DNA of 64,000 nt from an uncultured Planctomycetota bacterium. Lineage in GTDB: Bacteria > Planctomycetota > Planctomycetia > Isosphaerales > Isosphaeraceae. Location of the stretch: the NCBI GenBank assembly GCA_963823665.1, contig CAWGMQ010000010.1, positions 1,216,001 to 1,280,000 of the forward strand, given 5' to 3'. The notes beneath the pieces were generated by a model. It saw nothing but the letters and a program-made list of their open reading frames with translations. It searched no databases and had not been told where the DNA came from. This document shows, one piece after another, positions 303 through 50,207 of this stretch (the first letter of the stretch is position 1; the number at the start of each line of letters is the position of its first letter). Both the position numbers and the translations under genes were made by a program.

Positions 303-391
303 CAACAGCGGCGGGGTCGGAGACCCGCGCCGAACAGTTGGAGACCTGCGGTCACAACAGCGGCGGGGTCGAAGACCCGCGCCGAACAACA
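303..391. repeat. REP-like family A, two tandem copies (GGCGGGGTCGGAGACCCGCGCCGAAC)
   Basis: Copies at 310-335 and 362-387 with a GGAGACCTGCGGTC spacer; reverse-complement copies at 31600, 44847, 44909, 44973 and 49971. Confidence 0.85.
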
Positions 392-1614
392 GTCCCGGCG
401 AGGACGCAGAACCGGGCTCGCGCGACCGAGGGGCGGAGGGCAACAGCCGAAGGGCGGAGGGGCGGAGGGCGGAGACGTGTATCACCTGGCAAGATCAGAC
501 CGAGCTTGGCTGTCGTTTATTGAGCATTTGGCAATGTCAGTTTCTGGCAGAATCGGTGCACGGACCCTTGCGTTTCAGTCATTGCGATCGTGATGATCGT
601 TATCGTCGCTCGGACCGGCAGAAGAAATCCAGATTTCCTGATCGACAAATTAGCGAGTGCACGAGGTTCGTCATATAATCTATCTATCTGAGTCTCGATC
701 GCTGACACCGGAGTCGGCACGGGGCAACGACGACCACCGCCGTCTCTTCGTCCTCATCATCATCACCTTTTTCTTCTTCTCTCTCGCCCTCTCGAACCGG
801 GGAACGATTCGTTTGTTCACTCTTGCGCCTGTTGCGCGACTTGCGCGGTTGCTCACCAGCCCGTCGCAGCGGGAAAGAAGGGGGCGAATTCCGTATGGAA
901 TGGGCGAACGTGGCGCTACGGGATTCCCTCGGGTTTTGAGCGGAACGGGGATCGGGACGCCCCCACCGCCGTTGAGAGTGAGTTCTTACCGGGCCGACCG
1001 AGCGATCGTCGAGCGGAACTGGTGGCGTTATCCTCTTTGTTTCTGGGCACTTCCGTGCTGCCAAAGGGTGTTTTCACCAGCCGGAGGACTGGGCGCGAGG
1101 CCGCAATGAAAATAGACCGCTTTGGGCCCTGGAGTCCCATTTCGTCCCATTTTGTCCCATTCCCTTATACTTATCGGAAATGCGCTGCATATGGCTCGGG
1201 GGTTTGCCGCAGAGTGCAGGAGGGCGCGTTGATCTTGTGCCGAGGGAAACTGGCTCAAAGAAAGAGTGCGCGGGAGGCGTCGGAGACGAAGTTCAACGCT
1301 CAAGGCCGGGCGTGGCAGGCCGAGGATGGCTGGACTGGACTTGGAGCGGCTTCATCGGGATGGCGTGCCCTGGCGGGCTGTTCTGTTCTGGAGAATTGGA
1401 AGAATGGGATCGAGTTTGAAGCATGCGGCTTTTTCAACGACCGGAGGCGCGGGGAAGAACTTTCCGCGCATGGGTCGATGATCGCAGTCGGAGGAACGGC
1501 CAAGCGTGCGCCGCGTAGACCGGACCGAGCGAGAGTAACAGGAATTTCTCGCGTGGAGTGCAATAGAGTGCAAGATAGTGCAACGATTGAAAGACCGCGA
1601 AAGCCCAAGGGATC

Positions 1615-1700
1615 GTCCGGCTAAAGCCTGAGCTGCTTTGACGGGGTCGTCAGGCTAAAGCCTGACCTACTTTGGGTCGTCAGGATAAAGCCCGACCTAG
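1615..1700. repeat. GTAG-type REP-like family B cluster (GTCAGGCTAAAGCCTGACCTAC)
   Basis: Hairpins ending CTAC/CTAG at 1649-1670 and 1679-1700, plus a degenerate copy at 1615-1632; also present at 3097 and 21448. Confidence 0.8.
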
Positions 1701-1718
1701 TGTGAAACATCGCGAAAT

Positions 1719-1851
1719 GCGCCGAACGAACCCAATTCAAGCCACGTGGCCGGAAATACGCAACTTGCTTTGAAAACTGGGATTGCATCGTGATATCAAA
1801 ACGAATTGGGAGTTGACAACGTGGCCGGAATTGCGAACGAACCCAATCACG
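1719..1851 (+). repeat. ~130-bp AACGAASCCAAT-bounded module, copy 1
   Basis: Aligns by eye over its length with 2877-3008; same motifs and spacing as 31013-31150 (minus strand). Confidence 0.85.
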
Positions 1852-2876
1852 CCGCGCTGTGAAGGTCGGCTTTGCGCTCTTTCCCTCGTGCGCGCCCCTC
1901 CACCGTCTGCGGCGACACCTCTCCCAGTGCGGGGGAGGAAATGCAGAGCCGAAACTCGATCGACGCGGTGGCGGGGACTGGACTTTCGCGTGCGCCGCGC
2001 GCGCGTCGAGGAGGAATTGCATTCGCTAATCGGTCTAGTCGCTGGAACCCGGAAACTTTCTGGAAATCTCCCGGTCGAACGCCGGCGGAATCTGCAAAGT
2101 CGCCGCATATTGTATATGAGGGAACCTCCGGCGCGTTGTGTTCTGCGCCGGGGCGAGCTGGGTCATGGCAACCGGCGCGTTCTGAAGACACAACCAGAGC
2201 TTGGAGGAATTCGTTCATGACGGAGGGAAGTGTTCCAGGGGCTCGAAGCTCGTGGCTATTGACGTACGCCACGTTGGGGCGGGGCGCGGCCGAGGCGGGC
2301 AGGAGTGGCGGCCCTGTGGTGACTGGGCCGGCGGGCGCGTACACGCTGGATTCAGATCAAGTTCGGGATTCAGAATCCGGCCCCTTTACACTAGTGTACG
2401 GATGCTTGAACACGCCTCAAAAGCGCCACTTTGCGCCACTTTCCGCCATGTGTTCGACGGTTGACTCGGGTGGATTCATTCTTTGCAAGTTCAATGGACG
2501 TCATCGATTGGGAACGGCGTGAGGCGTTCTTCGGTAATGGCGCACGCGAGTGGCGCGTGCCACCAAGAACTGCCACGACAGACCGATGGTGTTGTACAGT
2601 ATGTTTTCTCGTCCCCCTTTCTACTGCACTCGGAGGGAGATCCGCGCTTCCCGGCGTGCGCGGTCTTCCGAGGGCGCAGGCCCGCCTCGGCCACCTGCGG
2701 CGGCATCTCCCCCACGAGGGCTGGAGCTATGCCTTCGCGGGGTGGGAAGAATCCCTTCGCGAAGCGAAGGGCGACAATGGGGTGCGACCCACAGAGTCTC
2801 AACGTTGGGACCGAAGCATGGAGGTCATCCGTCCTGTTCCCGCAGATAGGCCCTTGTTGAGCCAGGCCCGGAAATT

Positions 2877-3008
2877 GCCAAACGAACCCAATCTGGGTGA
2901 GGTGGCCGGAAGTACGCAACTTATTGTGAGCACTGGGATTGGGTCGTGAAATCAAAACGAACTGGGACTTGACAACGTGGCTGGAATTCGCGAACGAACC
3001 CAATCACG
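2877..3008 (+). repeat. ~130-bp AACGAASCCAAT-bounded module, copy 2
   Basis: Direct repeat of 1719-1851 (shared ATCAAAACGAAYTGGGASTTGACAACGTGGCYGGAATT...CGAACGAACCCAATCACG). Confidence 0.85.
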
Positions 3009-3090
3009 GGGTCGACACGGATTCCCGAGCGAAGCCGGTGCGTTGCGTCGCAGAACCAGGGCGATGCATCGGAGACCAAGGGCGATTCGG

Positions 3091-3119
3091 GAAATCGTCA
3101 GGCTGAAAGCCTGACCTAC
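3091..3119. repeat. REP-like family B copy
   Basis: GAAATCGTCAGGCTGAAAGCCTGACCTAC, near reverse complement of 21448-21475. Confidence 0.8.
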
Positions 3120-3184
3120 GTCCGGTTGAACGCCGGGATCAACGCTGGGTTGGATTTGCATCTCGCACCGCGAGCACGACGAAC

Positions 3185-19929: not shown

Positions 19930-21468
19930 ATGCCTCGAAAGGTCGCCATATTCTGGCCCGGAGATTATCGAGCCAGGCCGAATGAGTGGGCTCTCACCCA
20001 GTCCCGCGAGGCAACCTCGCAGCTCACCAGGGCGCTGCAAAAACTCGGGCGAACCCCGTACCTGGTCGAGGGCTACCTCACGCGGCCGGACGAATCGATC
20101 GCCAGGCTCGGTCCGATCGACGATCCCCTGATCGGTCTCTACGTCCACTGGACCTATGCGCCACACACGGTTGATGGAGTCGTCGGCAAAGATAACCCGC
20201 TCCTCCTCGCCTCGAATTTCTCGGGCACCTGGCCGGGCCTGGTGGCGCTTCTCAACACCGGCGCCTCGCTCGAAAGCGTCGGCCGGCCTGCCTCGCGCAT
20301 CTGGTCCGATTCCACCGACTGGACGGCCGATGCCCAGTTCATGGAGCGGCTCGACGAGTGGTGCACCTCCGGCCGCATCGCATATGACACCGGCGAGCTC
20401 CGAGCTGCTGCGGCGATCCGTCCCGAGGCAATCGCCGTCGCAAGCAGAGTGGCCGCCGAAATCCGCCGCCGTCGCGTGATCGCGCTCATGCTCGGCGACA
20501 CCTCGATGGGCATGATCAACGGATACTTCGGACCGAGATTGCTCTATCCCATCGGATTCACCGAGCACAAGGTCGACCAGGCCTGGCTGCTTGATCGCTG
20601 CAAAACGATCACCGAGAAGCGCGTCGGCGACGCATTCGACTTCGTCCAGGACCGCGGCGTCGTCTTCCACTGGAACGAGCCCGATGCCGCTGACTTCACG
20701 CCCGAGGCAACCCGCGAGCAACTCCGGGGCTACCTCGCTGCGCTCGATTTGATGGCGGAGTTCAAGGCCGACTGCCTGGGCTGGCAGTATCAGCTCGGGC
20801 TCCTCAATCTCCTTCCCCCCAGCGATTTCGCCGAGGGCCTGCTCAACTCCCACTGCCGGCCCGAAGGAAACGGCCGCGTCGTGATCACCAGCACCGAAGC
20901 CGACCAGGGGAACCTCGTCCCGATGGAGCTCATGAAACGCGTCTTGATCGCGCGCGGCATGCCCGAAGCCGTCATGTTCCACGACGTGCGCTGGGGTGCC
21001 CGCCACGACGACCGCTTTCTCTGGGTCCTGCTCAATTCCGGAAGCTGCTCGGCTTATGCATTCAACCACGACGTCTCGACCCTCCGCGGTGTTCATAGCT
21101 ACCGGCAGCCTGCCGGCTATTTCCCCGTGCCAGGCGGCACCTTCGCCGGCTCGAGCCTTGAGGGCGCAATCACCTGGGCCCGCTCCTGGATTGATCACTC
21201 CGGCAAGCTCGTCATGGACCTGGGCCGCGGCGAATCGGTTGCTCTCCCCGACCAGGTGCGCGAGTCCTGGTGGCGCGGCACAACCCGCCAGTGGCCGTTC
21301 ATGGCCGCCGACCTCGGCTGCTCCATGGAAACAATTATGGCCCATTATATGAGCAATCACATCGCCGTGGCCTACGGCGATATCTTCGGCGAAATGGTCG
21401 CATTGTCTCGGTCGCTGGGCTTCCAGGTGCGGATCCTCACTTCCGAAGCAGGTCAGGCTTCAGCCTGA
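19930..21468 (+). CDS. L-fucose/L-arabinose isomerase-like protein
   Basis: WPGLV, SMGM, WQYQ, TEADQG, HDVRWG, NSG, SNHIAVAY motifs; start taken at MPRKVAIF. Confidence 0.75.
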   Translation: MPRKVAIFWPGDYRARPNEWALTQSREATSQLTRALQKLGRTPYLVEGYLTRPDESIARLGPIDDPLIGLYVHWTYAPHTVDGVVGKDNPLLLASNFSGTWPGLVALLNTGASLESVGRPASRIWSDSTDWTADAQFMERLDEWCTSGRIAYDTGELRAAAAIRPEAIAVASRVAAEIRRRRVIALMLGDTSMGMINGYFGPRLLYPIGFTEHKVDQAWLLDRCKTITEKRVGDAFDFVQDRGVVFHWNEPDAADFTPEATREQLRGYLAALDLMAEFKADCLGWQYQLGLLNLLPPSDFAEGLLNSHCRPEGNGRVVITSTEADQGNLVPMELMKRVLIARGMPEAVMFHDVRWGARHDDRFLWVLLNSGSCSAYAFNHDVSTLRGVHSYRQPAGYFPVPGGTFAGSSLEGAITWARSWIDHSGKLVMDLGRGESVALPDQVRESWWRGTTRQWPFMAADLGCSMETIMAHYMSNHIAVAYGDIFGEMVALSRSLGFQVRILTSEAGQASA

Positions 21469-21475
21469 CGATTTC
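21448..21475. repeat. REP-like family B copy overlapping the isomerase stop codon
   Basis: GCAGGTCAGGCTTCAGCCTGACGATTTC. Confidence 0.75.
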
Positions 21476-21509
21476 TTGAAACCAATTCCCTGTCATTCTC
21501 CGTTTCCTC

Positions 21510-30615: not shown

Positions 30616-30739
30616 GCGTCACCCGCCAGTGATCCGCTCGAAGCACCGCGCTCCAGCGAAAGCCCGCAGCCGAACTTTCCCCCCCTTGCAAAGGGGGGCC
30701 AGGGGGGGTGAAGGGCGTCACCCGCCAGTGATCCGCTCG
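30616..30739. repeat. 25-bp direct repeats (GCGTCACCCGCCAGTGATCCGCTCG) flanking a CCCCCCTT-AAGGGGGG REP-like hairpin
   Basis: Repeats at 30616-30640 and 30715-30739, related copy at 38444-38464; hairpin 30675-30710 recurs at 49790-49824. Confidence 0.8.
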
Positions 30740-30763
30740 CCGCGCACCAGCCCCCACATTCGC

Positions 30764-32774
30764 TCACGGCCCCCGCACGTCCTGCGGCGCCATCCCTTCC
30801 CCCGCCGCCCCACCCGCATCGGCCCCAGCGTTCATTCCCCCGGCACCCAACCTCGCCAATCGCTCCCGCGCCTCCTTCTCCGCACGTTGACGAATCCACT
30901 CCCGCCGCCTGATTTCCTTCCACGCGTCCCGTCGCTCGTAGTCCGTCAAGGCACGTGCAACCGGCTGTGTTGTCGAACCTCCACTTCCACCCGCCTCCGC
31001 ACCCCCCACCGGAATTGGCTTCGTTTGCAAAATTGGCTTCGTTTGACAATCGTCAAGTCCCGAAACACCGCCGGAATTCGTCGGAACTTCAATAATATCT
31101 TGATGTTGTGCTATGCACGCGTCATCACAAAAATTGGCTTCGTTCGGCGCTTTTTCACCGATTTGACTCTCGTCGCCGCCTGCGGCAACCTCTTCTTCCC
31201 GCCCTCGATCAGCAGCTTCCGCCAGTTGCTCTTGAGTGACTTCGCTCGCACCTCCCGCATTCAGTTCGATGTCGCACCGCTCGGCTTCCTCCAATTCTGC
31301 ACCCACCGTTTTCGAGTTCGGTACTTCATCCTCCAGGGCAGCCCCAGGCGCCGACTCGCCGTCGCCGTCGCCCGCAGCGCCAACGTACTTCTCAGGAAGA
31401 TACCCACCACACGCCAGAACGTCCGATTCCTCGACCACAACCGACTCCCACCCGCGCCCCTTCTCATTCGAAGTAGCAGGCACACTCCGTGTGCCGTCCG
31501 CCTGAGGCTCACGGCCAATCTCAACCGCCGCGCCCGAACCACTACCCGCGAGTGGCCCGCCGCTCCCACAGTCACCCGAATCCGCCTCCCCATCCGCGTG
31601 TTGGGCGCGGGTCTCCTGGCCCCGCCCTCCCCGCGACCGCAGGTCTCCCTTCTTCCCACCCCCCACACTCTCCGCCCACCAAGCCGCCGGCCGCCCATCA
31701 TATGGGCTGATAACATCTTTCCCAGGCACCGGCGGCAATCCCTGCGCATCGCTATCCGCCTTCCGCGCCCGTACCTCCTGCCGAATTACCTTGCCCCCTC
31801 GCTCCACCGACCCCTTGGCGCGCGAACCATCGCCGCATCGCCTCAGCTTCCTTGGTATAAACAAATCCCTTGCGTCGCCTCGTCCGCGCAGGTTCATCCT
31901 TGATATGGGTGTCATGTTCCGCCGCAATGGCCCACACCCGCTCGATCTCGCCCTCCACCAGCTCGATCAGGCTCTGCCTGGCCTTCTCCTTTTCACCGCG
32001 CTGCGATAGGTCAGGCCACAACGCCACGACCGCCTTCACGTGGGCCTCGAGCATCAGCTCGTTCATATCGCTGAGCAGATCGTCAAACGGTTTGCCCATC
32101 GGCCGAAGCGCGTGGCTGGCGGCGAAAACCTCAGCGACCCGCCGGTCTGCGGGGCCGTCCACAGGATTCCGCCCCAGCAACCGTAGCATCATCAGCCGAT
32201 CGCCGGAGGACCAAAAACGTTTGCGAGCCCGTTCCAGCAGTTCCTCAAGAACCTCAAGGATCCAGTAGCACCCCATCGCGCTCGATTCCAGTTTGCGCAT
32301 GAGTTCGTCGGGCTTGATCGCCGGCGCAGTTTCGCTACCCCATGACGGCCCCCCTGGTTTCTTGTTGTTATAGCGACGGGTGCCGAACAGCGCAACCGGC
32401 ACGCCTCGCGAATCGGTGAACAGCAGGTCGCCCGTTTCGCGCACCTCTTTGATCTCGTCGTCCTCGGCGTTGTCGATCTGGCTTTGAGTGAGTTCCAGAT
32501 AAGCGCCCCTCACCCGATCCATGTCCGACGCCAGGAACAGGTTGGCATTCAATAGAAACTCCTCGGGGTCACTCTCCACCCCATAATGCGCGGACCAGCG
32601 AAAGTATCGCGCTTCATACGCGATGCTTTCCTCCCGCGCGAGCTTCTCCCGCTCCGATCGCATACCGTGCTTCCGACTATTGCGAGCGCTCTTCGCCCGG
32701 GATTCCGGACTTTTAGGCCCGGTCGAGCGCAACGCATTGCGCCGATTCGCATTGATTTGTGCGTCAGAGGCCAT
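30764..32774 (-). CDS. Uncharacterised 'MASDAQINANRRNA...STGPKS...KHG' family protein with long low-complexity tail; frameshift near 31820
   Basis: ORF 31752-32774 joins ORF 30764-31927 at RRWFAR/AKGSVER; the N-terminal motif is one I recall as multicopy in Planctomycetes and Acidobacteria and it resembles the STGP...KHG part of HGGxSTG proteins. Confidence 0.75.
31013..31150 (-). repeat. AACGAASCCAAT-bounded module, copy 3 (intragenic)
   Basis: Reverse complement of 31132-31150 is GCGCCGAACGAAGCCAATT, 18/19 identical to 1719-1737; GGGACTTGAC at 31061-31052; two further motifs at 31045-31031 and 31027-31013. Confidence 0.75.
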
Positions 32775-33348
32775 ATCAGTATAAATTCCTATTCAAATGA
32801 GCTTGGAAGCCTGGCCCGAAGTCCCGCGACCTCGAGAATTTCATAAGTTGATGTGAACGGAACTAATCGGATCCAGAGACGTGGGTGCCCATCGCGCCGA
32901 CACCAGTGTCGGCAATCGACTTTGAGCTACAGATATTATGCGACGGGTTTCCCAAATTTGGTCATTTCGTCGACCAGAAAACCTGGAATTTTTTTCACGT
33001 CGCAACGCATGCAACGACCAATTCGATCGAACCTGCGAATTTGCGCGCGACGCGGCCAGAAAACGGGAAAAAACACCCGGCGCGATTCCCGCATCCACGT
33101 CGCCCGTTCAGTCCGTGAGCCTCTTGTCTCGAGCGCAGCTCGGCGGAGCCTCGCACTTCCGAAATCGCGAAATGCCGATTCGCCGTTGGCATCGTGAGAC
33201 AGGAATGCTCGAGGCACTGCATTGTCCGTACCGGCTCCTTCTGCGATCATCCAGAGTTAATCTGTGCCCACCGATCGCGCGCGTCCAGTGCATTCGAGAT
33301 CGTTGCGCCAGGGCTCGTTGAAAACACGGATTGACCGAGGTCATCGTC

Positions 33349-34448: not shown

Positions 34449-35357
34449 CGCCGCCTCGCAAGCATCTGCGCTTCGGCCCGCGAACATCCGCTCGTCCGCT
34501 GAGATCGAGAACCTTCGAAATTGCCCGTCGCCCCACAAACGCGCTCGACCTATCCCAGTGCGACCGCCCTATCGATGTCAATCGCGTCGTTCGCACGCGC
34601 CGCACCCAGCTTCTGAGGCATCCGCGTTCCGGCCGTCAAATCACCGCCGCCTCGAGCGAACGCAAAGCGTAATTAGCTGACGCGGCAGCCGCTACGAGTA
34701 CTCGTTGCCTCGATCCAACACGACCGTCCGACATCTGCCGAGTCGATCCCCACGATCGCGTGCCATGTCCCGTCTGCGTCCCGGCCTCGCTCTCATCTCC
34801 TACTTCGTTACCTTTGCTGCCTTCTGTTCAAATCTGGTATTTCCCTGACTATGCCAAGCCTGGCGAGCGTGTCAATTCCGACAAGAAGTGCATCTGATTG
34901 GTCGCAGCTTAGAACAACCTTCTATTCAAATCCGGTCTCTCGCCGGGCATGGCAAGCCCGGAAAGCCTGTCATTTCTGACGTGCGCGCGCTCCGCGAAGG
35001 GACTCCGTCCAACCCCATTGCCTCCACCGATTTCGCCCACTCGCCACACACAATAGAATGCAGAAAGAAACCGATGAGTGAGCAGCACGCGCAGCCATCG
35101 TTCCGGTCGCGTCGCGCAGTCGTCTGCAGCAACCGTCCGCTCATTCGGAAGCGGCAACGAATTGGTGAGAAAGGAACTCGCTGACGCAGCAGGCGTGTTG
35201 GGTGCTCGGCGGCTGCATCCGGAGGGCCGGCAATTGCCCAAACGACCCGCCTCCTGCGTGCCGTTCTCGTTTCTTCGACAACTGTCGTTGACCAACCCGC
35301 CTCCAGAAAATACCCTGGAGCAAGAAATCAAGCACATCAGCCAGCGGAGCAGCGCAA

Positions 35358-36650
35358 ATGACGCCAATCGCCCTGTTGCGCCGCAGCTTTCCGACTCCAG
35401 GATTGGTCATCCGGTGGATTGGCAAGAGCCGTCGGCGAATCGCCTCCCTGCTCCTCACGCTCCTGGCGATCATAGCCGCCCCTCCGCTCTGGTGGTCGGC
35501 GCAACTGATCGCCCTCCCCGACATCGGCGACCCGTTCGACATCACTTCATTCCCCCCGTCCACGATCCCGGCTGACCGAAACGCCTTCATGCTCTACCGC
35601 GAGGCCGACAGGCTGCTCAAGCCCCTTCAAGAGTACCTCAAGACACCGCGGACCAGCGTCGAGCTCTTCGCTCGCTGGCCGAAGGCCGACGCCGATCTCC
35701 GCCGGCTGCTCACGGAGAACCGCAAGGCCCTCGCCGTCTACCGCCAGGCCACCGAGCGGCCCGATGCCATCGATCCCGCCGTCAGATCTCTTCACGACGG
35801 CGACGAACCGCTTCCATCCGGTCTGTCCTTCCGCCTCATGGTCCTGCTCGAGGCCTCGCGGCTGGAAGACGTCCAGGGCGACATGGCCGGCGCATGGGGC
35901 TGGTACCGCGCCATGGTCCGGACCATTCACCACGTTGGTATGCGCGCTTCGGTCCAGCGGCGCATCAGTATCCAGCGCTGGTACGGACAGCTCCGCAATC
36001 GCCTGGCGACATGGGCCGCCGATCCGAGGACGACGCCCGCGCTCCTCCGCCAGGCTCTCGCCGACGTGGTCGCGTGTGACGAGCTGGTTCCCTCAGAACA
36101 AGATTCGCTCAAGGCCAGCTATTTAGACGTGTCCTCGCTACTCGACAGCCCGCAGAACCCAGGTCGCAACGTGCCATTCAAGAAGTTCCGCCAGTTCCGC
36201 AAACCGAACGGCCCGCTCACCCGGGAGGAAATCCAGAAGCTCTGGGATGCCTGGCGATTCGCGCGCCGCGAGCCCGAGCGCAGCCAGCGTGTGATCCGCA
36301 TGTTGACCGCCAACTGGCTGGCGTATCTCGACCTGCCGTCCCAAAATCGCCCGAAACCCGATCCGAAGGTCGCGCAGTTGGATATTTATCCCCTCGGTCC
36401 CCAATCACCGGCCAGCGCACGTACCCTGTCCCCCGAAGCTCTGGAACGCTGGTTTGAAAGCGCCCACGACGCCCAGAAAGTCCTCCCTTACCTCAATCAA
36501 ACCGCAGTCAAGAACCTCGAGCTCAGAAACCACGCCGAGATCCTGTTGCTCCTGGCAACCGAGCTCTACCGCCGCGATCACCAAGGAACCAACCCTCCCA
36601 CACTCGAAGCCTTGGTCGGCCCCTACCTCGAGCGTCTGCCCGACGAATAA
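35358..36650 (+). CDS. Hypothetical membrane-anchored protein, paralogue 1
   Basis: 430 aa; N-terminal TM, LPDIGDPFD...NAF.LY, C-terminal LEALVGPYLERLP. Confidence 0.8.
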   Translation: MTPIALLRRSFPTPGLVIRWIGKSRRRIASLLLTLLAIIAAPPLWWSAQLIALPDIGDPFDITSFPPSTIPADRNAFMLYREADRLLKPLQEYLKTPRTSVELFARWPKADADLRRLLTENRKALAVYRQATERPDAIDPAVRSLHDGDEPLPSGLSFRLMVLLEASRLEDVQGDMAGAWGWYRAMVRTIHHVGMRASVQRRISIQRWYGQLRNRLATWAADPRTTPALLRQALADVVACDELVPSEQDSLKASYLDVSSLLDSPQNPGRNVPFKKFRQFRKPNGPLTREEIQKLWDAWRFARREPERSQRVIRMLTANWLAYLDLPSQNRPKPDPKVAQLDIYPLGPQSPASARTLSPEALERWFESAHDAQKVLPYLNQTAVKNLELRNHAEILLLLATELYRRDHQGTNPPTLEALVGPYLERLPDE

Positions 36651-37017: not shown

Positions 37018-37120
37018 CCCCGGTCAGCCGTCGCGCGCGTTCCATCGTCGTTGACCAACCCGCCTCCCGAACATACGCTGGAGCAAGAAATCAAGCTCAT
37101 CGGCCGGGGGAGCAACGGAG

Positions 37121-38412
37121 ATGACGCGCCTCGCCCTGTTGCACCGCAGTTTTCCGACACCGGGATTGTTCATCCAATGGATTGGCAAAAGCCGTCGACG
37201 GATCACCTGCGTTCTCCTCGCGCTCCTGACGATCGTGGCCGGCCCTCCACTCTGGTGGGAAACGCAACTGCTCGGCCTGCCCGACATCGGCGATCCGTTC
37301 GACATTGCCTCATTCCGGTCGTCCACCGTCCCCGACGACCGCAACGCGTTCGTGCTCTACCGCCAGGCCGCCGCGGCGCTCAAGCCTGACGCGGAGTTCC
37401 AGAAAACACCGCGGACCAGCGTCGAGCGATTCGCTCGCTGGTCCAAGGCTGACGAAAATCTCCGCCGGCTGCTCACGGAGAACCGCGACGCACTGGCCAT
37501 CTACCGCCAGGGAAGCGAGCGCCCGATGGGTTCGACCCTCCACCCATCGTATCTTCTCGCGACAGCGACGCAACGCTTCCATCTGGCCTGTCGTTCCGCC
37601 TGATGGTTCTGCTCGAAGCATCGCGGCTGGAAGATCAGGGCGACATGGCCGGCGCGTGGGGCTGGTACCGCGCGATGGTTCGAACCATCCATCACGTCGG
37701 CATGCGCGGCTCGGTCCAGCGGCGGTTCAGCATCCAGCTCTGGTACGGACAGCTCCACGATCGCCTGGCGACGTGGTCCGCCAACCCGAACACGTCGCCC
37801 GCGCTGCTCCGCCAGGCTCTCGCCGATATCGTCGCGTGCAAGGCAATGACTCCCTCGGAGCAGGATTCGCTCAAGTCAAGTTACTTGGATGTGAATCGGT
37901 TGTTCGACAGCCCCAAAAACCCGGCCGGCACGGTTCCTAGCACGAAGTTCCGCCAGTCGTGGAATCCGAACAACAAGCTCACCCGAGAAGAAGTCCAGAA
38001 ACTCTGGGATGTCTGGCGAATATGGCGCCGCGAGCCCGAGCGCAGCCGGCGGGTGATCCGCCTGCTGGCCGCCAACTGGCTGGCGTATCTCGACCTGCCG
38101 CCCCACAATCGCCCGAAACCCGATCCGAGCGTCGCCGCGGTTGATATCTATCCCCTCGGTCTAGAGTCGCCGCCAAACGCATGTGCTCTGTCCCCCGAAC
38201 TGCTGGAAAGCTGGTTTGAAAGCGCCCACGACGCGCAGGAACTCCTCCGCTACCTCAAACCAAACGCAGTCCAGAACCTCGAGCGCGCACACCACGGCGA
38301 GATCCTGCTGCTCCTGGCGACAGAGCTCTATCGCCGCGATCACAACGGAGCCAACCCTCCAACATCCGAAGCATTGGTCGGCCTCTACCTCGAGCGCCTG
38401 CCCGCCGAATAA
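37121..38412 (+). CDS. Hypothetical membrane-anchored protein, paralogue 2; 1-nt frameshift at about 37523
   Basis: Collinear with 35358-36650; adding one C to CCC at 37522-37524 restores ERPDGFDP...LSFRLMVLLEAS. Confidence 0.8.
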
Positions 38413-38590
38413 AACCTTCCCTCCAGAAGAGGGTGGAGGGTGCCACTCGCCAGTGATCCGATCGACACGCCCGCAAGCAAGCGGAAGCCGCCGCGCACCT
38501 TTCCCCCAAAGCCGGATGTGCGAGGCTCCCGCCGAGCCGCGAAAGCGTCGCATTCCCACCGCGCACATCCCCGCACCCGTCCAATCTTTC

Positions 38591-44846: not shown

Positions 44847-45022
44847 GTTGGGCGCGGGTCTCCGACCCCGCCCCAGTGTCGCCTTTCGCTCTGCGAAAGT
44901 GCGTCGGGGTTGGGCGCGGGTCTCCCGACCCCGCCCTCAGGCACGACCGAAGGTCTCCCACCCAGACCGAGCGTTGGGCGCGGGTCTCTGACCCCGCCCG
45001 CCCCGATGACCGAAGGTCTCCC
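44847..45022. repeat. Composite REP cluster (3x family A, 2x GACCGAAGGTCTCCC, 1x GTCGCCTTTCGCTCYGCGAAAG)
   Basis: Family A at 44847, 44909 and 44973; partner motif at 44945 and 45008; third family at 44878 recurs at 47991 and inverted near 2753-2775. Confidence 0.85.
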
Positions 45023-45162
45023 TACGGCGCCCCGCCCGCCTTGTTCTGCCCCTTCCCATGCCCGACGGCAACCATCCCATGTTATGATCCAGAAGTGCCC
45101 GGCTTCGTCCACTCCCATCGTGACGACGAGCGGACACTCCCGGCCCGGAAAAAGGATATGAA

Positions 45163-49625: not shown

Positions 49626-49665
49626 TCCCCAGCGAGAACGATCGCACCCGCGTTGTCCGAATCCC

Positions 49666-49997
49666 GTAGGGTCCGCCAATGCGGACCATCGCAGGCCCAT
49701 CGCGCGTTGGCCGCGGCTCCCCGACCCTGGGCTGTTGAAACCTTGTGATCTAACGAACGACAATTTCCCCACGCGTGTGTTGCGCAAAGCTTCCCCCCCT
49801 TGCGAAGGGGCGGCCAGGGGGGGATGCGTGGCGGCGGCCGCTATCACAAGACCGTCGCGCAACAGAAAACTCCGGATCGTCGTCCACCTCGAAATTCGCC
49901 ATTACGGCCCGGTTTTCATCAGCCCATCCCGTCGGGTCCGCCGTTGCGGACCATCCCTGAGCAAACGCGCGTTGGGCGCGGGTCTCCGACCCCGCCC
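49666..49997. repeat. Intergenic REP-rich tract
   Basis: GTAG-GGTCCGC-N4-GCGGACC at 49666 and variant at 49931; CCCCCCTT hairpin at 49790; family A at 49971. Confidence 0.75.
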
Positions 49998-50207
49998 GTC
50001 CCCAAGACCGTAGTTCTCTGACGCCCAAACCGCGCGCCCGCATCCCCCCTCGAGCCCCATCGCCCTCCAGAATTCCCAACGACCCGCTTGCGGAAGCGTA
50101 TCCCGCTCAACTACAGCTATCAGACAGCTCCGTCGGCGCATCACCTCTGACGGCCCTCGGTCCGGGAAGTCCCCAAGGCAGTCGCATCGTCTCCTGAGAA
50201 TTCCGCC

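What the first reader, a model, noticed from the sequence alone, without database searches (positions are those of the whole stretch)
1719..3008. Fixed-geometry ~130-bp DNA module in three copies (70-nt spacing conserved)
Seen: copies at 1719-1851, 2877-3008 and 31150-31013 (minus) all read CCRAACGAASCCAAT, then exactly 70 nt (1738-1807, 2894-2963, 31062-31131), then GGGASTTGAC, then another AACGAASCCAAT. The spacer of copy 3 is otherwise not alignable to copies 1 and 2. Copies 1 and 2 have a TGA at the same place in the NEPN frame, and in copy 3 the motif is read as both NEAN and TKPI, so conservation appears to be at the nucleotide level. Inference: a cis-acting multi-site element (protein-binding or recombination site, element end, or structured RNA) that is neither REP nor CRISPR.
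Basis: partly seen in the sequence, partly recalled or inferred. Interest (0 to 1): 0.75.

Follow-up and report, generated by a model that had tools for sequence, protein, structure and literature searches.

The report
DNA site of unannotated selfish gene
This 130-base repeat is a spacing-constrained DNA site that normally sits in the tail of a very large, unannotated, many-copy bacterial gene and also occurs alone about twenty times in this genome; it is likely the docking site that the gene's own protein, predicted to self-assemble, uses to get copied, which would make it a new kind of mobile element.

Summary
Copy 3 lies in the 3' tail of an orphan gene (32774-31752, minus) found at 48 fetched loci of this genome and in 37,245 protein clusters with no Pfam, NCBIfam or PHROG family. 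Copies 1 and 2 are gene-less versions (19 near-full-length in the genome). Selection on the module is at the DNA level: synonymous change inside it is about 5-15 times lower than in the surrounding tail, gene-less copies carry stops, and there is no RNA-fold signal. Spacing is exact in gene-borne copies (28 of 28) and within one base in free copies (24 of 24). Box A marks relatives of the gene in Planctomycetota, Acidobacteriota and Alphaproteobacteria (64 of 80 loci, both strands, all frames). Copies are recombinant mosaics with ragged ends; I saw no terminal inverted repeats or target duplication. One empty site exists in a sister genome. The all-helical protein is predicted to oligomerise head-to-tail. 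Best reading: the cis-site of an undescribed selfish cassette plus non-autonomous derivatives, spread by borrowed recombination enzymes. Binding and mechanism are inferred; the small-terminase link is weak.

The parts
1715..1847 (+). Copy 1: gene-less (type B) module, bounded by two direct copies of box A
   Evidence: stop in the box frame as in 24 of 24 type B copies; no family gene within 3 kb
1725..1736 (+). Box A, first copy (family-wide core site)
1760..1785 (+). Central AT-phased, imperfectly palindromic element 35-36 nt after box A start; likely a DNA-bending or second-protein site (inferred)
   Evidence: alignment of 52 copies; similar element beside the box in other subfamilies; IHF consensus test weak
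1808..1818 (+). Box B with a -35-like hexamer (1813-1818); no -10-like box at promoter distance after it (read from the sequence)
1821..1831 (+). Second copy of an 11-nt internal repeat (first copy 1746-1756) found only in type B; type B is about one helical turn longer than type A here
1836..1847 (+). Box A, second copy; type B similarity ends here
2871..3004 (+). Copy 2: gene-less (type B) module; box A at 2881-2892 and 2993-3004, box B from 2964
   Evidence: no match at the orthologous place in sister genome G001
600..3150 (.). Gene-free mosaic of dispersed repeats holding copies 1 and 2 (REP-like array at 1609-1704, other short modules)
   Evidence: most bins match other loci
31014..31154 (-). 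Copy 3: gene-borne (type A) module; box A at 31144-31133, 31043-31032, 31025-31014; box B 31061-31052
31752..32774 (-). Orphan gene, conserved all-helical core of about 340 aa with an N-terminal STGP / NAxKHG arm; frameshifted near 31817 in this assembly
   Evidence: contigs of all four soil runs carry 2 extra bases there and the 97.6% identical copy L050 is in frame
30764..31927 (-). Low-complexity 3' tail ORF (joined to the core in intact copies, 660-800 aa in all) that reads through the module and ends in an arginine-rich stretch
30640..33130 (-). Approximate full extent of the gene-bearing cassette; both ends ragged, REP-like repeats at the 3' end

Best explanation
The module is a DNA-level, spacing-constrained site that lies in the tail of a multicopy orphan gene and also occurs without the gene; it is likely the cis-acting recognition site of an undescribed selfish cassette, and copies 1 and 2 are likely its non-autonomous derivatives. 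Shown: the site is selected as DNA, travels with the gene family across phyla, and copies recombine with each other. Predicted: the helical protein assembles head-to-tail into an oligomer. Inferred: the oligomer binds the box A repeats and the central AT-phased element bends the DNA between them, which would fix the spacing to within one base. The protein has no recognisable catalytic domain, so the complex would have to recruit a borrowed enzyme, most likely a single-strand-annealing recombination system of host or phage origin, that pastes copies in by short homology. That would explain mosaic copies, ragged ends and the lack of terminal inverted repeats.
For: DNA-level selection: dS 0.03-0.07 inside the module against 0.36-0.60 in the tail on either side in 6 of 6 pairs, all against copy L050 and so not independent; dN/dS 1.3-2.5 inside; no codon-position bias (0.92/0.93/0.91) and stops in 24 of 24 free copies. 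Link to the gene: box A words are the top de novo 9-mers in gene tails of 80 named loci; a site in 64 of 80 tails, 0.95 against 0.07 per kb in flanks, in all three frames and on the reverse strand at 16 loci. Protein under purifying selection: dN/dS 0.17-0.46 in 14 of 14 pairs. Dispersal: 48 loci in this genome, copies up to 97.6% identical with unrelated flanks; near-identical bursts in G001 and G003. Recombination: L046's core is 97-99% like L035 but its three 3' segments are 95-98% like L038. Empty site: G001 lacks a 934-bp insert that ends about 20 nt after a type B module. Oligomer: score 0.70, best control 0.00; the mark was reached by 20 of 30 solved pairs and 1 of 23 single chains; runs agree in at least 73% of contacts, pLDDT at least 72; four copies and my own alignment, so the calibration holds only roughly; one copy touches two neighbours by two different faces. 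Partner enzymes: in 5 of 6 viral-collection loci the gene directly follows an ERF-DUF968 gene, with YqaJ confirmed upstream in 3, and box A lies about 30 nt before the start in 4 of those 5. Single-copy, arm-less homologues in 6 of 6 genomes of family f33 have no box A within 600 nt of the gene.
Against: No binding is shown. No clean empty site was found for any gene-bearing copy at 7 sites compared with G001; at 4 of the 7, G001 holds an older, truncated or other-subfamily member, so the sites may be old hot spots homogenised by gene conversion. The one empty site covers a composite insert that also holds REP-like repeats, and gain or loss could not be told. A subfamily without the STGP arm is still multicopy (15 loci) and carries a variant box, so the arm is not required. 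Tandem box arrays mostly keep one reading frame (58 of 83 in-gene forward sites), which leaves room for some peptide-level selection. No ERF or YqaJ gene was looked for beside the planctomycete copies. No circle junction of the cassette was seen in four soil runs.
Confidence: 0.55

Rival explanations
1. The protein is a small-terminase-like ring and the module a pac-like site: the cassette would recruit a helper phage or gene-transfer-agent large terminase and start packaging from the chromosome.
For: N-terminal arm plus helical hairpin and predicted head-to-tail oligomer. TerS rings have been proposed to wrap about 100 bp and pac sites can be bent DNA (PMC6854486, passages), close to the 101-113 bp box-to-box span. 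HK97 TerS at rank 12, Z 7.2, rmsd 5.7, 99 of 122 residues aligned. phrog_9231 TerS hit in 3 of 31 members, best E 0.023, over the NAxKHG stretch in 1 of 32 N-termini. A large terminase lies within 2 kb in 2 of 6 viral loci. The downstream flank is syntenic with G001 at 7 of 7 sites.
Against: The Z score is tied with generic helical bundles. HK97 gp1 against alignment A4 gives probability 0.07%. In L208 another gene (DUF5681) sits directly before the large terminase on the opposite strand. Packaging alone does not create copies at new loci in one genome.
Confidence: 0.2
2. The module is a host regulatory site (mobile promoter part or nucleoid-protein site), and both it and the gene are passengers shuffled by REP/RAYT-type or other transposases in mosaic intergenic regions.
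For: -35-like hexamer; the next gene is co-oriented in 29 of 46 own loci and 49 of 74 named loci (rough ORF calls). REP-like repeats flank many copies. IHF consensus within one mismatch in 11 of 52 copies against a shuffled mean of 3.9, maximum 8.
Against: No -10-like box at promoter distance. 10 of the 11 IHF hits are close type A paralogues and there is no exact hit. Box A follows the gene family across three phyla, which a lineage-specific host regulator would not explain.
Confidence: 0.15
3. The module acts as RNA, either a structured ncRNA or a protein-binding site on the cassette's mRNA, and the cassette spreads through a borrowed reverse transcriptase.
For: 5'-truncated copies and chimeras exist; tails end in arginine-rich stretches.
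Against: Mean fold z between -0.5 and +0.5 for both types and strands; no Rfam match; the box occurs on either strand of the gene.
Confidence: 0.07
4. The copies are decayed gene tails whose conservation reflects a peptide motif.
For: 23 of 24 type A copies keep the first frame open; arrays favour one frame.
Against: Synonymous sites are the most conserved. Free copies have stops and one-base indels yet keep the boxes, and share an 11-nt insertion. No gene remnant within 3 kb of 24 free copies.
Confidence: 0.03

Closest known systems
Bacterial MITEs / small mobile repeats (Correia-NEMIS, ERIC, RUP, RPE; PMC2229807, passages read)
   Same: Under 200 bp, non-coding, multicopy, intergenic and also in frame inside ORFs; the 155-bp Correia form carries an IHF site.
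   Different: Ends are direct box repeats, not terminal inverted repeats; no target duplication seen; no stable stem-loop; the partner gene has no transposase domain.
REP / REPtron / TIRtron systems (PMC3733652, passages read)
   Same: Dispersed short repeats that build mosaic clusters and are tied to one gene family; REP-like repeats lie next to copies 1 and 2.
   Different: The module is not a hairpin, and the linked protein has no Pfam or NCBIfam match to Y1 transposases and is all-helical.
Phage small terminase with its pac/cos site (PMC6854486, passages; HK97 TerS-DNA structure 8pop, search listing only)
   Same: Non-enzymatic helical oligomer, N-terminal arm, about 100 bp of spacing-constrained DNA. 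A site inside the protein's own gene is known for P22-type pac (recalled).
   Different: No significant sequence or fold match; no terminase, portal or capsid genes seen beside planctomycete copies; dozens of dispersed chromosomal copies.
Putative mobile promoters (PMC3575422, abstract and opening read)
   Same: Repeated intergenic pieces with promoter-like motifs and no known transposase.
   Different: Only a -35-like hexamer; the site is embedded in, and travels with, a specific protein family.
Phage Red-like recombination modules (YqaJ exonuclease with ERF annealing protein)
   Same: Alphaproteobacteria-like relatives of the gene sit directly behind ERF-DUF968 in 5 of 6 viral-collection loci.
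   Different: No such partners were seen beside the planctomycete copies; I know of no cis-site of this kind for these modules (recall).

Membership tests
MITE / insertion sequence | Terminal inverted repeats | tested here: not met
   Type B ends are direct repeats; cassette ends are ragged and differ among 93-96% identical copies; the module's own ends are not among the inverted repeats listed (25 longest of 67 shown).
MITE / insertion sequence | Target-site duplication | tested here: inconclusive
   One empty site at 86-88% flank identity shows at most an imperfect 4-nt match; none seen by eye at other ends.
MITE / insertion sequence | Cognate DDE, HUH, serine, tyrosine or IS110 transposase | tested here: not met
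   No such Pfam or NCBIfam hit for the window protein, for 15 long members (Pfam and NCBIfam) or for 31 short members (NCBIfam only); models are all-helical.
REP / REPIN / RAYT | Short GC-rich palindrome forming a hairpin | tested here: not met
   Fold z near 0 on both strands.
Structured ncRNA (Rfam) | Conserved secondary structure or Rfam match | tested here: not met
   Covariation was not computed.
Small terminase with pac site | Sequence or fold homology to a known TerS | tested here: inconclusive
   Z 7.2, rmsd 5.7, 99 aligned, tied with unrelated bundles; PHROG best E 0.023; hhalign 0.07%.
Small terminase with pac site | Homo-oligomeric ring | tested here: inconclusive
   Self-assembly supported (0.70 against 0.00; 20 of 30 and 1 of 23), two-face contacts, but four copies cannot show a closed ring.
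Small terminase with pac site | Gene directly upstream of a large terminase | tested here: not met
   In L208 a DUF5681 gene holds that place; in L212 the large terminase starts about 1.6 kb after the family gene's start; none seen by eye among ORFs next to the 48 own loci, which were not family-scanned.
Small terminase with pac site | Specific DNA binding and TerL recruitment | not testable with these tools
   Needs EMSA, pull-down and packaging assays.
IHF-bound recombination site (attP-like) | IHF consensus (recalled) between arm-type repeats | tested here: inconclusive
   0 of 52 exact, 11 of 52 within one mismatch, mostly close paralogues.
Integron attC cassette | 57-141 bp imperfect palindrome (recalled) after each cassette gene, with an integrase | tested here: not met
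   No fold signal; the only palindrome is about 23 bp; no integrase search was run.
Sigma-70 promoter | -35 and -10 boxes about 17 nt apart | tested here: not met
   Only the -35-like hexamer is conserved in the alignment; read by eye, no promoter scan was run.

The most novel reading that the evidence does not exclude
A very large, unannotated class of transposase-free mobile elements: one non-enzymatic ring-forming protein recognises a spacing-coded site inside its own gene and hijacks host or phage recombination or packaging enzymes to copy the cassette, with MITE-like gene-less parasites such as copies 1 and 2. It would be a main driver of intergenic shuffling in soil Planctomycetota and Acidobacteriota.
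Probability: 0.4. Interest if true: 0.9.

Novelty: categorically new. Interest (0 to 1): 0.72.

Why it matters
The family has 37,245 clusters at 50% identity and tens to about a hundred matches per genome in one planctomycete family, yet no profile library or paper I searched names it. If the protein binds this site and drives copying, bacteria have a mobile-element class that needs no transposase of its own, and current IS-finding pipelines would miss it. The module gives a short defined substrate, so the central claim can be tested directly with one EMSA and one hop assay. If it is terminase-like, it would be a chromosomal packaging origin present dozens of times per genome.

Tried and rejected
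No Pfam, NCBIfam or PHROG family for the window protein. No solved relative by sequence. No Foldseek match at E<=0.001. TerS is not among the top 50 for the short model. ESM Atlas gave only hypothetical clusters, plus a 0.79 lead to SEC-C-bearing Acidobacteriota proteins. No match in INPHARED phages; 3 plasmid records, annotated hypothetical or not at all. phrog_9231 was not found in 13 related genomes. No RNA holder listed. No circle junction or clean skip of the module in soil contigs. Outgroup genomes do not bridge the L044 empty site. G001 sites for L031, L035 and L049 gave one-sided or no synteny. The conserved tyrosine in the last helix was rejected as a catalytic residue because it is not invariant. 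Literature searches that named nothing relevant among the rows listed. PMC3174227 (passages) reports many short repeats in Solibacter but not this family. Supplements were not opened and may list such paralogue groups.

Full report
1. Observation. Box A (window 1725-1736 and equivalents) occurs 7 times in the window against 0.44 expected and 59 times exactly in the 16.5-Mb genome against 0 for the reversed control, mostly in clusters of two or three. Box A to box B is 83 nt start to start in all three copies, so the spacer is 71 nt after the 12-mer, not 70. The second box lies at +111 and +112 in copies 1 and 2 and at +101 and +119 in copy 3. Best named relatives of the linked gene are Isosphaeraceae and other Planctomycetota, so the host is probably a soil planctomycete (inference).

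2. Two settings. Copy 3 (type A) lies in the 3' tail of a gene starting at 32774 on the minus strand. In this assembly the gene is frameshifted near 31817; contigs of four soil runs carry two extra bases there and the 97.6% identical copy L050 is a 670-aa ORF. The protein has 59 matches in the genome, which I traced to 48 fetched loci. Sixteen loci carry the type A module (two of them are tails cut by contig ends) and four a related type C. Copies 1 and 2 (type B) are gene-less: 19 near-full-length copies and two halves among 23 matches genome-wide, and no family remnant within 3 kb of the 24 copies examined, 12 from this genome and 12 from sister genome G001. A profile made only from type B finds 15 of 28 type A/C copies, copy 3 at E 1.9e-6, so the types are homologous along their length. 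Type B sits in gene-free mosaics of REP-like and other repeats; most of window 600-3150 matches other loci.

3. Anatomy. The alignment of 52 copies gives four parts: box A; an AT-phased, imperfectly palindromic element of about 23 bp starting 35-36 nt after it; box B with a -35-like hexamer; and a second box A. Box A to the hexamer is 88 nt in 24 of 24 type A and 4 of 4 type C copies, and 87, 88 or 89 nt in 13, 5 and 6 type B copies. Type B has an extra 11-nt repeat before the second box, about one helical turn. Other subfamilies carry tandem units of box plus a similar central element (66-nt units, or a variant box about 35 nt after the central element in the 15 arm-less loci).

4. Selection is on DNA. 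In six comparisons against L050, dS inside the module is 0.03-0.07 against 0.36-0.60 in the tail on both sides, and dN/dS there is 1.3-2.5. The protein core shows dN/dS 0.17-0.46 in 14 of 14 pairs (the pairs are not independent). There is no codon-position bias. 24 of 24 type B copies have a stop in the frame that 23 of 24 type A copies keep open. Folding z-scores average between -0.5 and +0.5, and Rfam has no match on four loci holding both types. An IHF consensus (recalled) never matches exactly; 11 of 52 copies match within one mismatch (shuffled mean 3.9, maximum 8), but 10 of these are close paralogues.

5. The box follows the gene across phyla. In 80 named loci (Isosphaeraceae, Planctomycetaceae, Phycisphaerae, Bryobacterales, Alphaproteobacteria; the best 80 of 569 confirmed), box A words are the top de novo 9-mers in gene tails. 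A matrix seeded from the window's seven sites hits 64 of 80 tails, 0.95 against 0.07 sites per kb in flanks. Forward in-gene sites fall in frames 0, 1 and 2 (58, 15, 10), 50 lie after the stop, and 16 are on the reverse strand. The family has 37,245 clusters at E<=0.001. It was found in 17 of 18 other genomes of the host's family and 0 of 12 from other families of the class with the long profile, and in 8 of 120 genomes drawn from the phylum with the short profile. Six of those eight are single-copy, arm-less homologues in one family; five of the six lie near the same fatty-acid-synthesis-like genes (by eye), and none has a box within 600 nt of the gene. That looks like domestication with loss of the site (inference). 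Against a simple arm-box rule, an arm-less subfamily is multicopy here.

6. Mobility. Copies up to 97.6% identical lie in unrelated flanks, and G001 and G003 have their own near-identical bursts. Ends are ragged and recur at several alternative places; I saw no terminal inverted repeats or target duplications. Copies are recombinant: L046's core is 97-99% like L035 and 91-92% like L038, but its three 3' segments are 95-98% like L038. At 7 type A sites compared with G001 the downstream flank is syntenic in 7. G001 has a family member at 4 (deleted, 5'-truncated or another subfamily) and none at 3, with no clean upstream junction; 0 of 8 comparisons with other genera show a family gene there. 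Of 4 type B sites tested, one gives a clean empty site: G001 lacks a 934-bp composite insert (other modules, a REP-like array, then the type B module ending about 20 nt from the junction). Outgroups do not bridge it, so gain or loss is open.

7. The protein. No Pfam, NCBIfam or PHROG family for the window protein, and no consistent hit among members. Both models are all-helical: an N-terminal STGP / NAxKHG arm and a long helical hairpin with a variable insertion. Four copies are predicted to assemble: score 0.70, best control 0.00, mark reached by 20 of 30 solved pairs and 1 of 23 single chains, contact agreement at least 73%, pLDDT at least 72, and the calibration only roughly applicable. One copy meets two neighbours by different faces. 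A small-terminase link is weak: HK97 TerS at Z 7.2, rmsd 5.7, 99 aligned, tied with generic bundles; absent from the short model's top 50; PHROG E 0.023 in 3 of 31; hhalign 0.07%. In the viral collection 6 loci were found; in 5 the gene directly follows ERF-DUF968, with YqaJ confirmed in 3 and box A about 30 nt before the start in 4. Two have a large terminase nearby, and in L208 a DUF5681 gene precedes it on the other strand.

8. Mechanism. Shown: DNA-level constraint, near-fixed geometry, linkage to the gene, dispersal, recombination between copies, purifying selection on the protein. Predicted: self-assembly. Inferred: the oligomer binds box A repeats across a bent spacer and recruits a borrowed enzyme, most likely an annealing-type recombinase, which copies the cassette; type B uses the protein in trans. 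My odds: the site belongs to this family 0.9; it is bound by the family protein 0.6; the whole model 0.55. Rivals: pac-like packaging origin 0.2, passenger or host regulatory site 0.15, RNA-level function 0.07, decayed peptide 0.03.

9. Known systems and novelty. It works like a MITE with its autonomous partner, but fails the inverted-repeat and transposase tests (PMC2229807, passages). It is not a REP (PMC3733652, passages). It resembles TerS with pac in architecture (PMC6854486, passages; PMC10370121 and PMC11331095, search listing only), but membership is inconclusive or not met. Mobile promoters (PMC3575422, abstract and opening) lack a linked protein. Seven library searches showed no description of the family or the module among the rows listed; most subscription papers and all supplements were not covered. 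Earlier scan notes on terminase-like dispersed cassettes in other genomes are unchecked leads only. Verdict: a real, apparently undescribed cis-site of a large orphan multicopy gene family, candidate new mobile-element class, mechanism unproven; interest 0.72.

Noticed in passing
window 1609-1704, 3086-3119, 21443-21484: REP-like palindromic repeats, three in tandem just before copy 1; the same type lies beside other type B copies (L044, L089).
   Followed up: partly
window 1124-1165, 1556-1583, 2385-2450: Other short modules with triple direct hexamer repeats about 10-11 nt apart and AT-phased spacers; the stretches at 1124-1165 and 2385-2450 are repeated at several loci, some upstream of family genes. 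They may be cis-sites of other small elements.
   Followed up: no
L050 3182-3664 (minus): A 160-aa helix-turn-helix-like ORF (only weak Pfam hits, E 0.07-0.09) preceded by a triple direct repeat, directly downstream of a type A cassette.
   Followed up: partly
L234-L239 (family f33): Single-copy, arm-less homologue of the orphan protein in 6 of 6 low-GC genomes of one family, near fatty-acid-synthesis-like genes in five: candidate domesticated copy.
   Followed up: partly
L208-L212: Alphaproteobacteria-like elements with YqaJ, ERF-DUF968 and the family gene in one run, facing a ParB-like / DUF5681 / large-terminase run in L208 and L210.
   Followed up: partly
L213-L217 (G001): Near-identical copies whose tails expanded to 1200-1400 codons by tandem units of about 380-510 nt, each with the variant box.
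   Followed up: partly
L218-L227, L230-L232 (G003): A conserved short motif near the ragged 3' ends resembles the rRNA antitermination boxA (recalled, not tested); upstream promoter-like block conserved across otherwise different leaders.
   Followed up: no
window 35284-36650 and 37047-38425: Tandem paralogous genes about 1763 nt apart (79-84% identical); G001 has one copy at the orthologous place within the fetched stretch.
   Followed up: no
window 305-387, 31585-31664, 44847-45037, 49661-50035: Another REP-like repeat family, one copy inserted in the tail of the copy-3 cassette.
   Followed up: no
many fetched G000/G001/G003 loci: Frequent single-base frameshifts in family genes at homopolymers; some may be long-read assembly errors and not pseudogenes.
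   Followed up: partly
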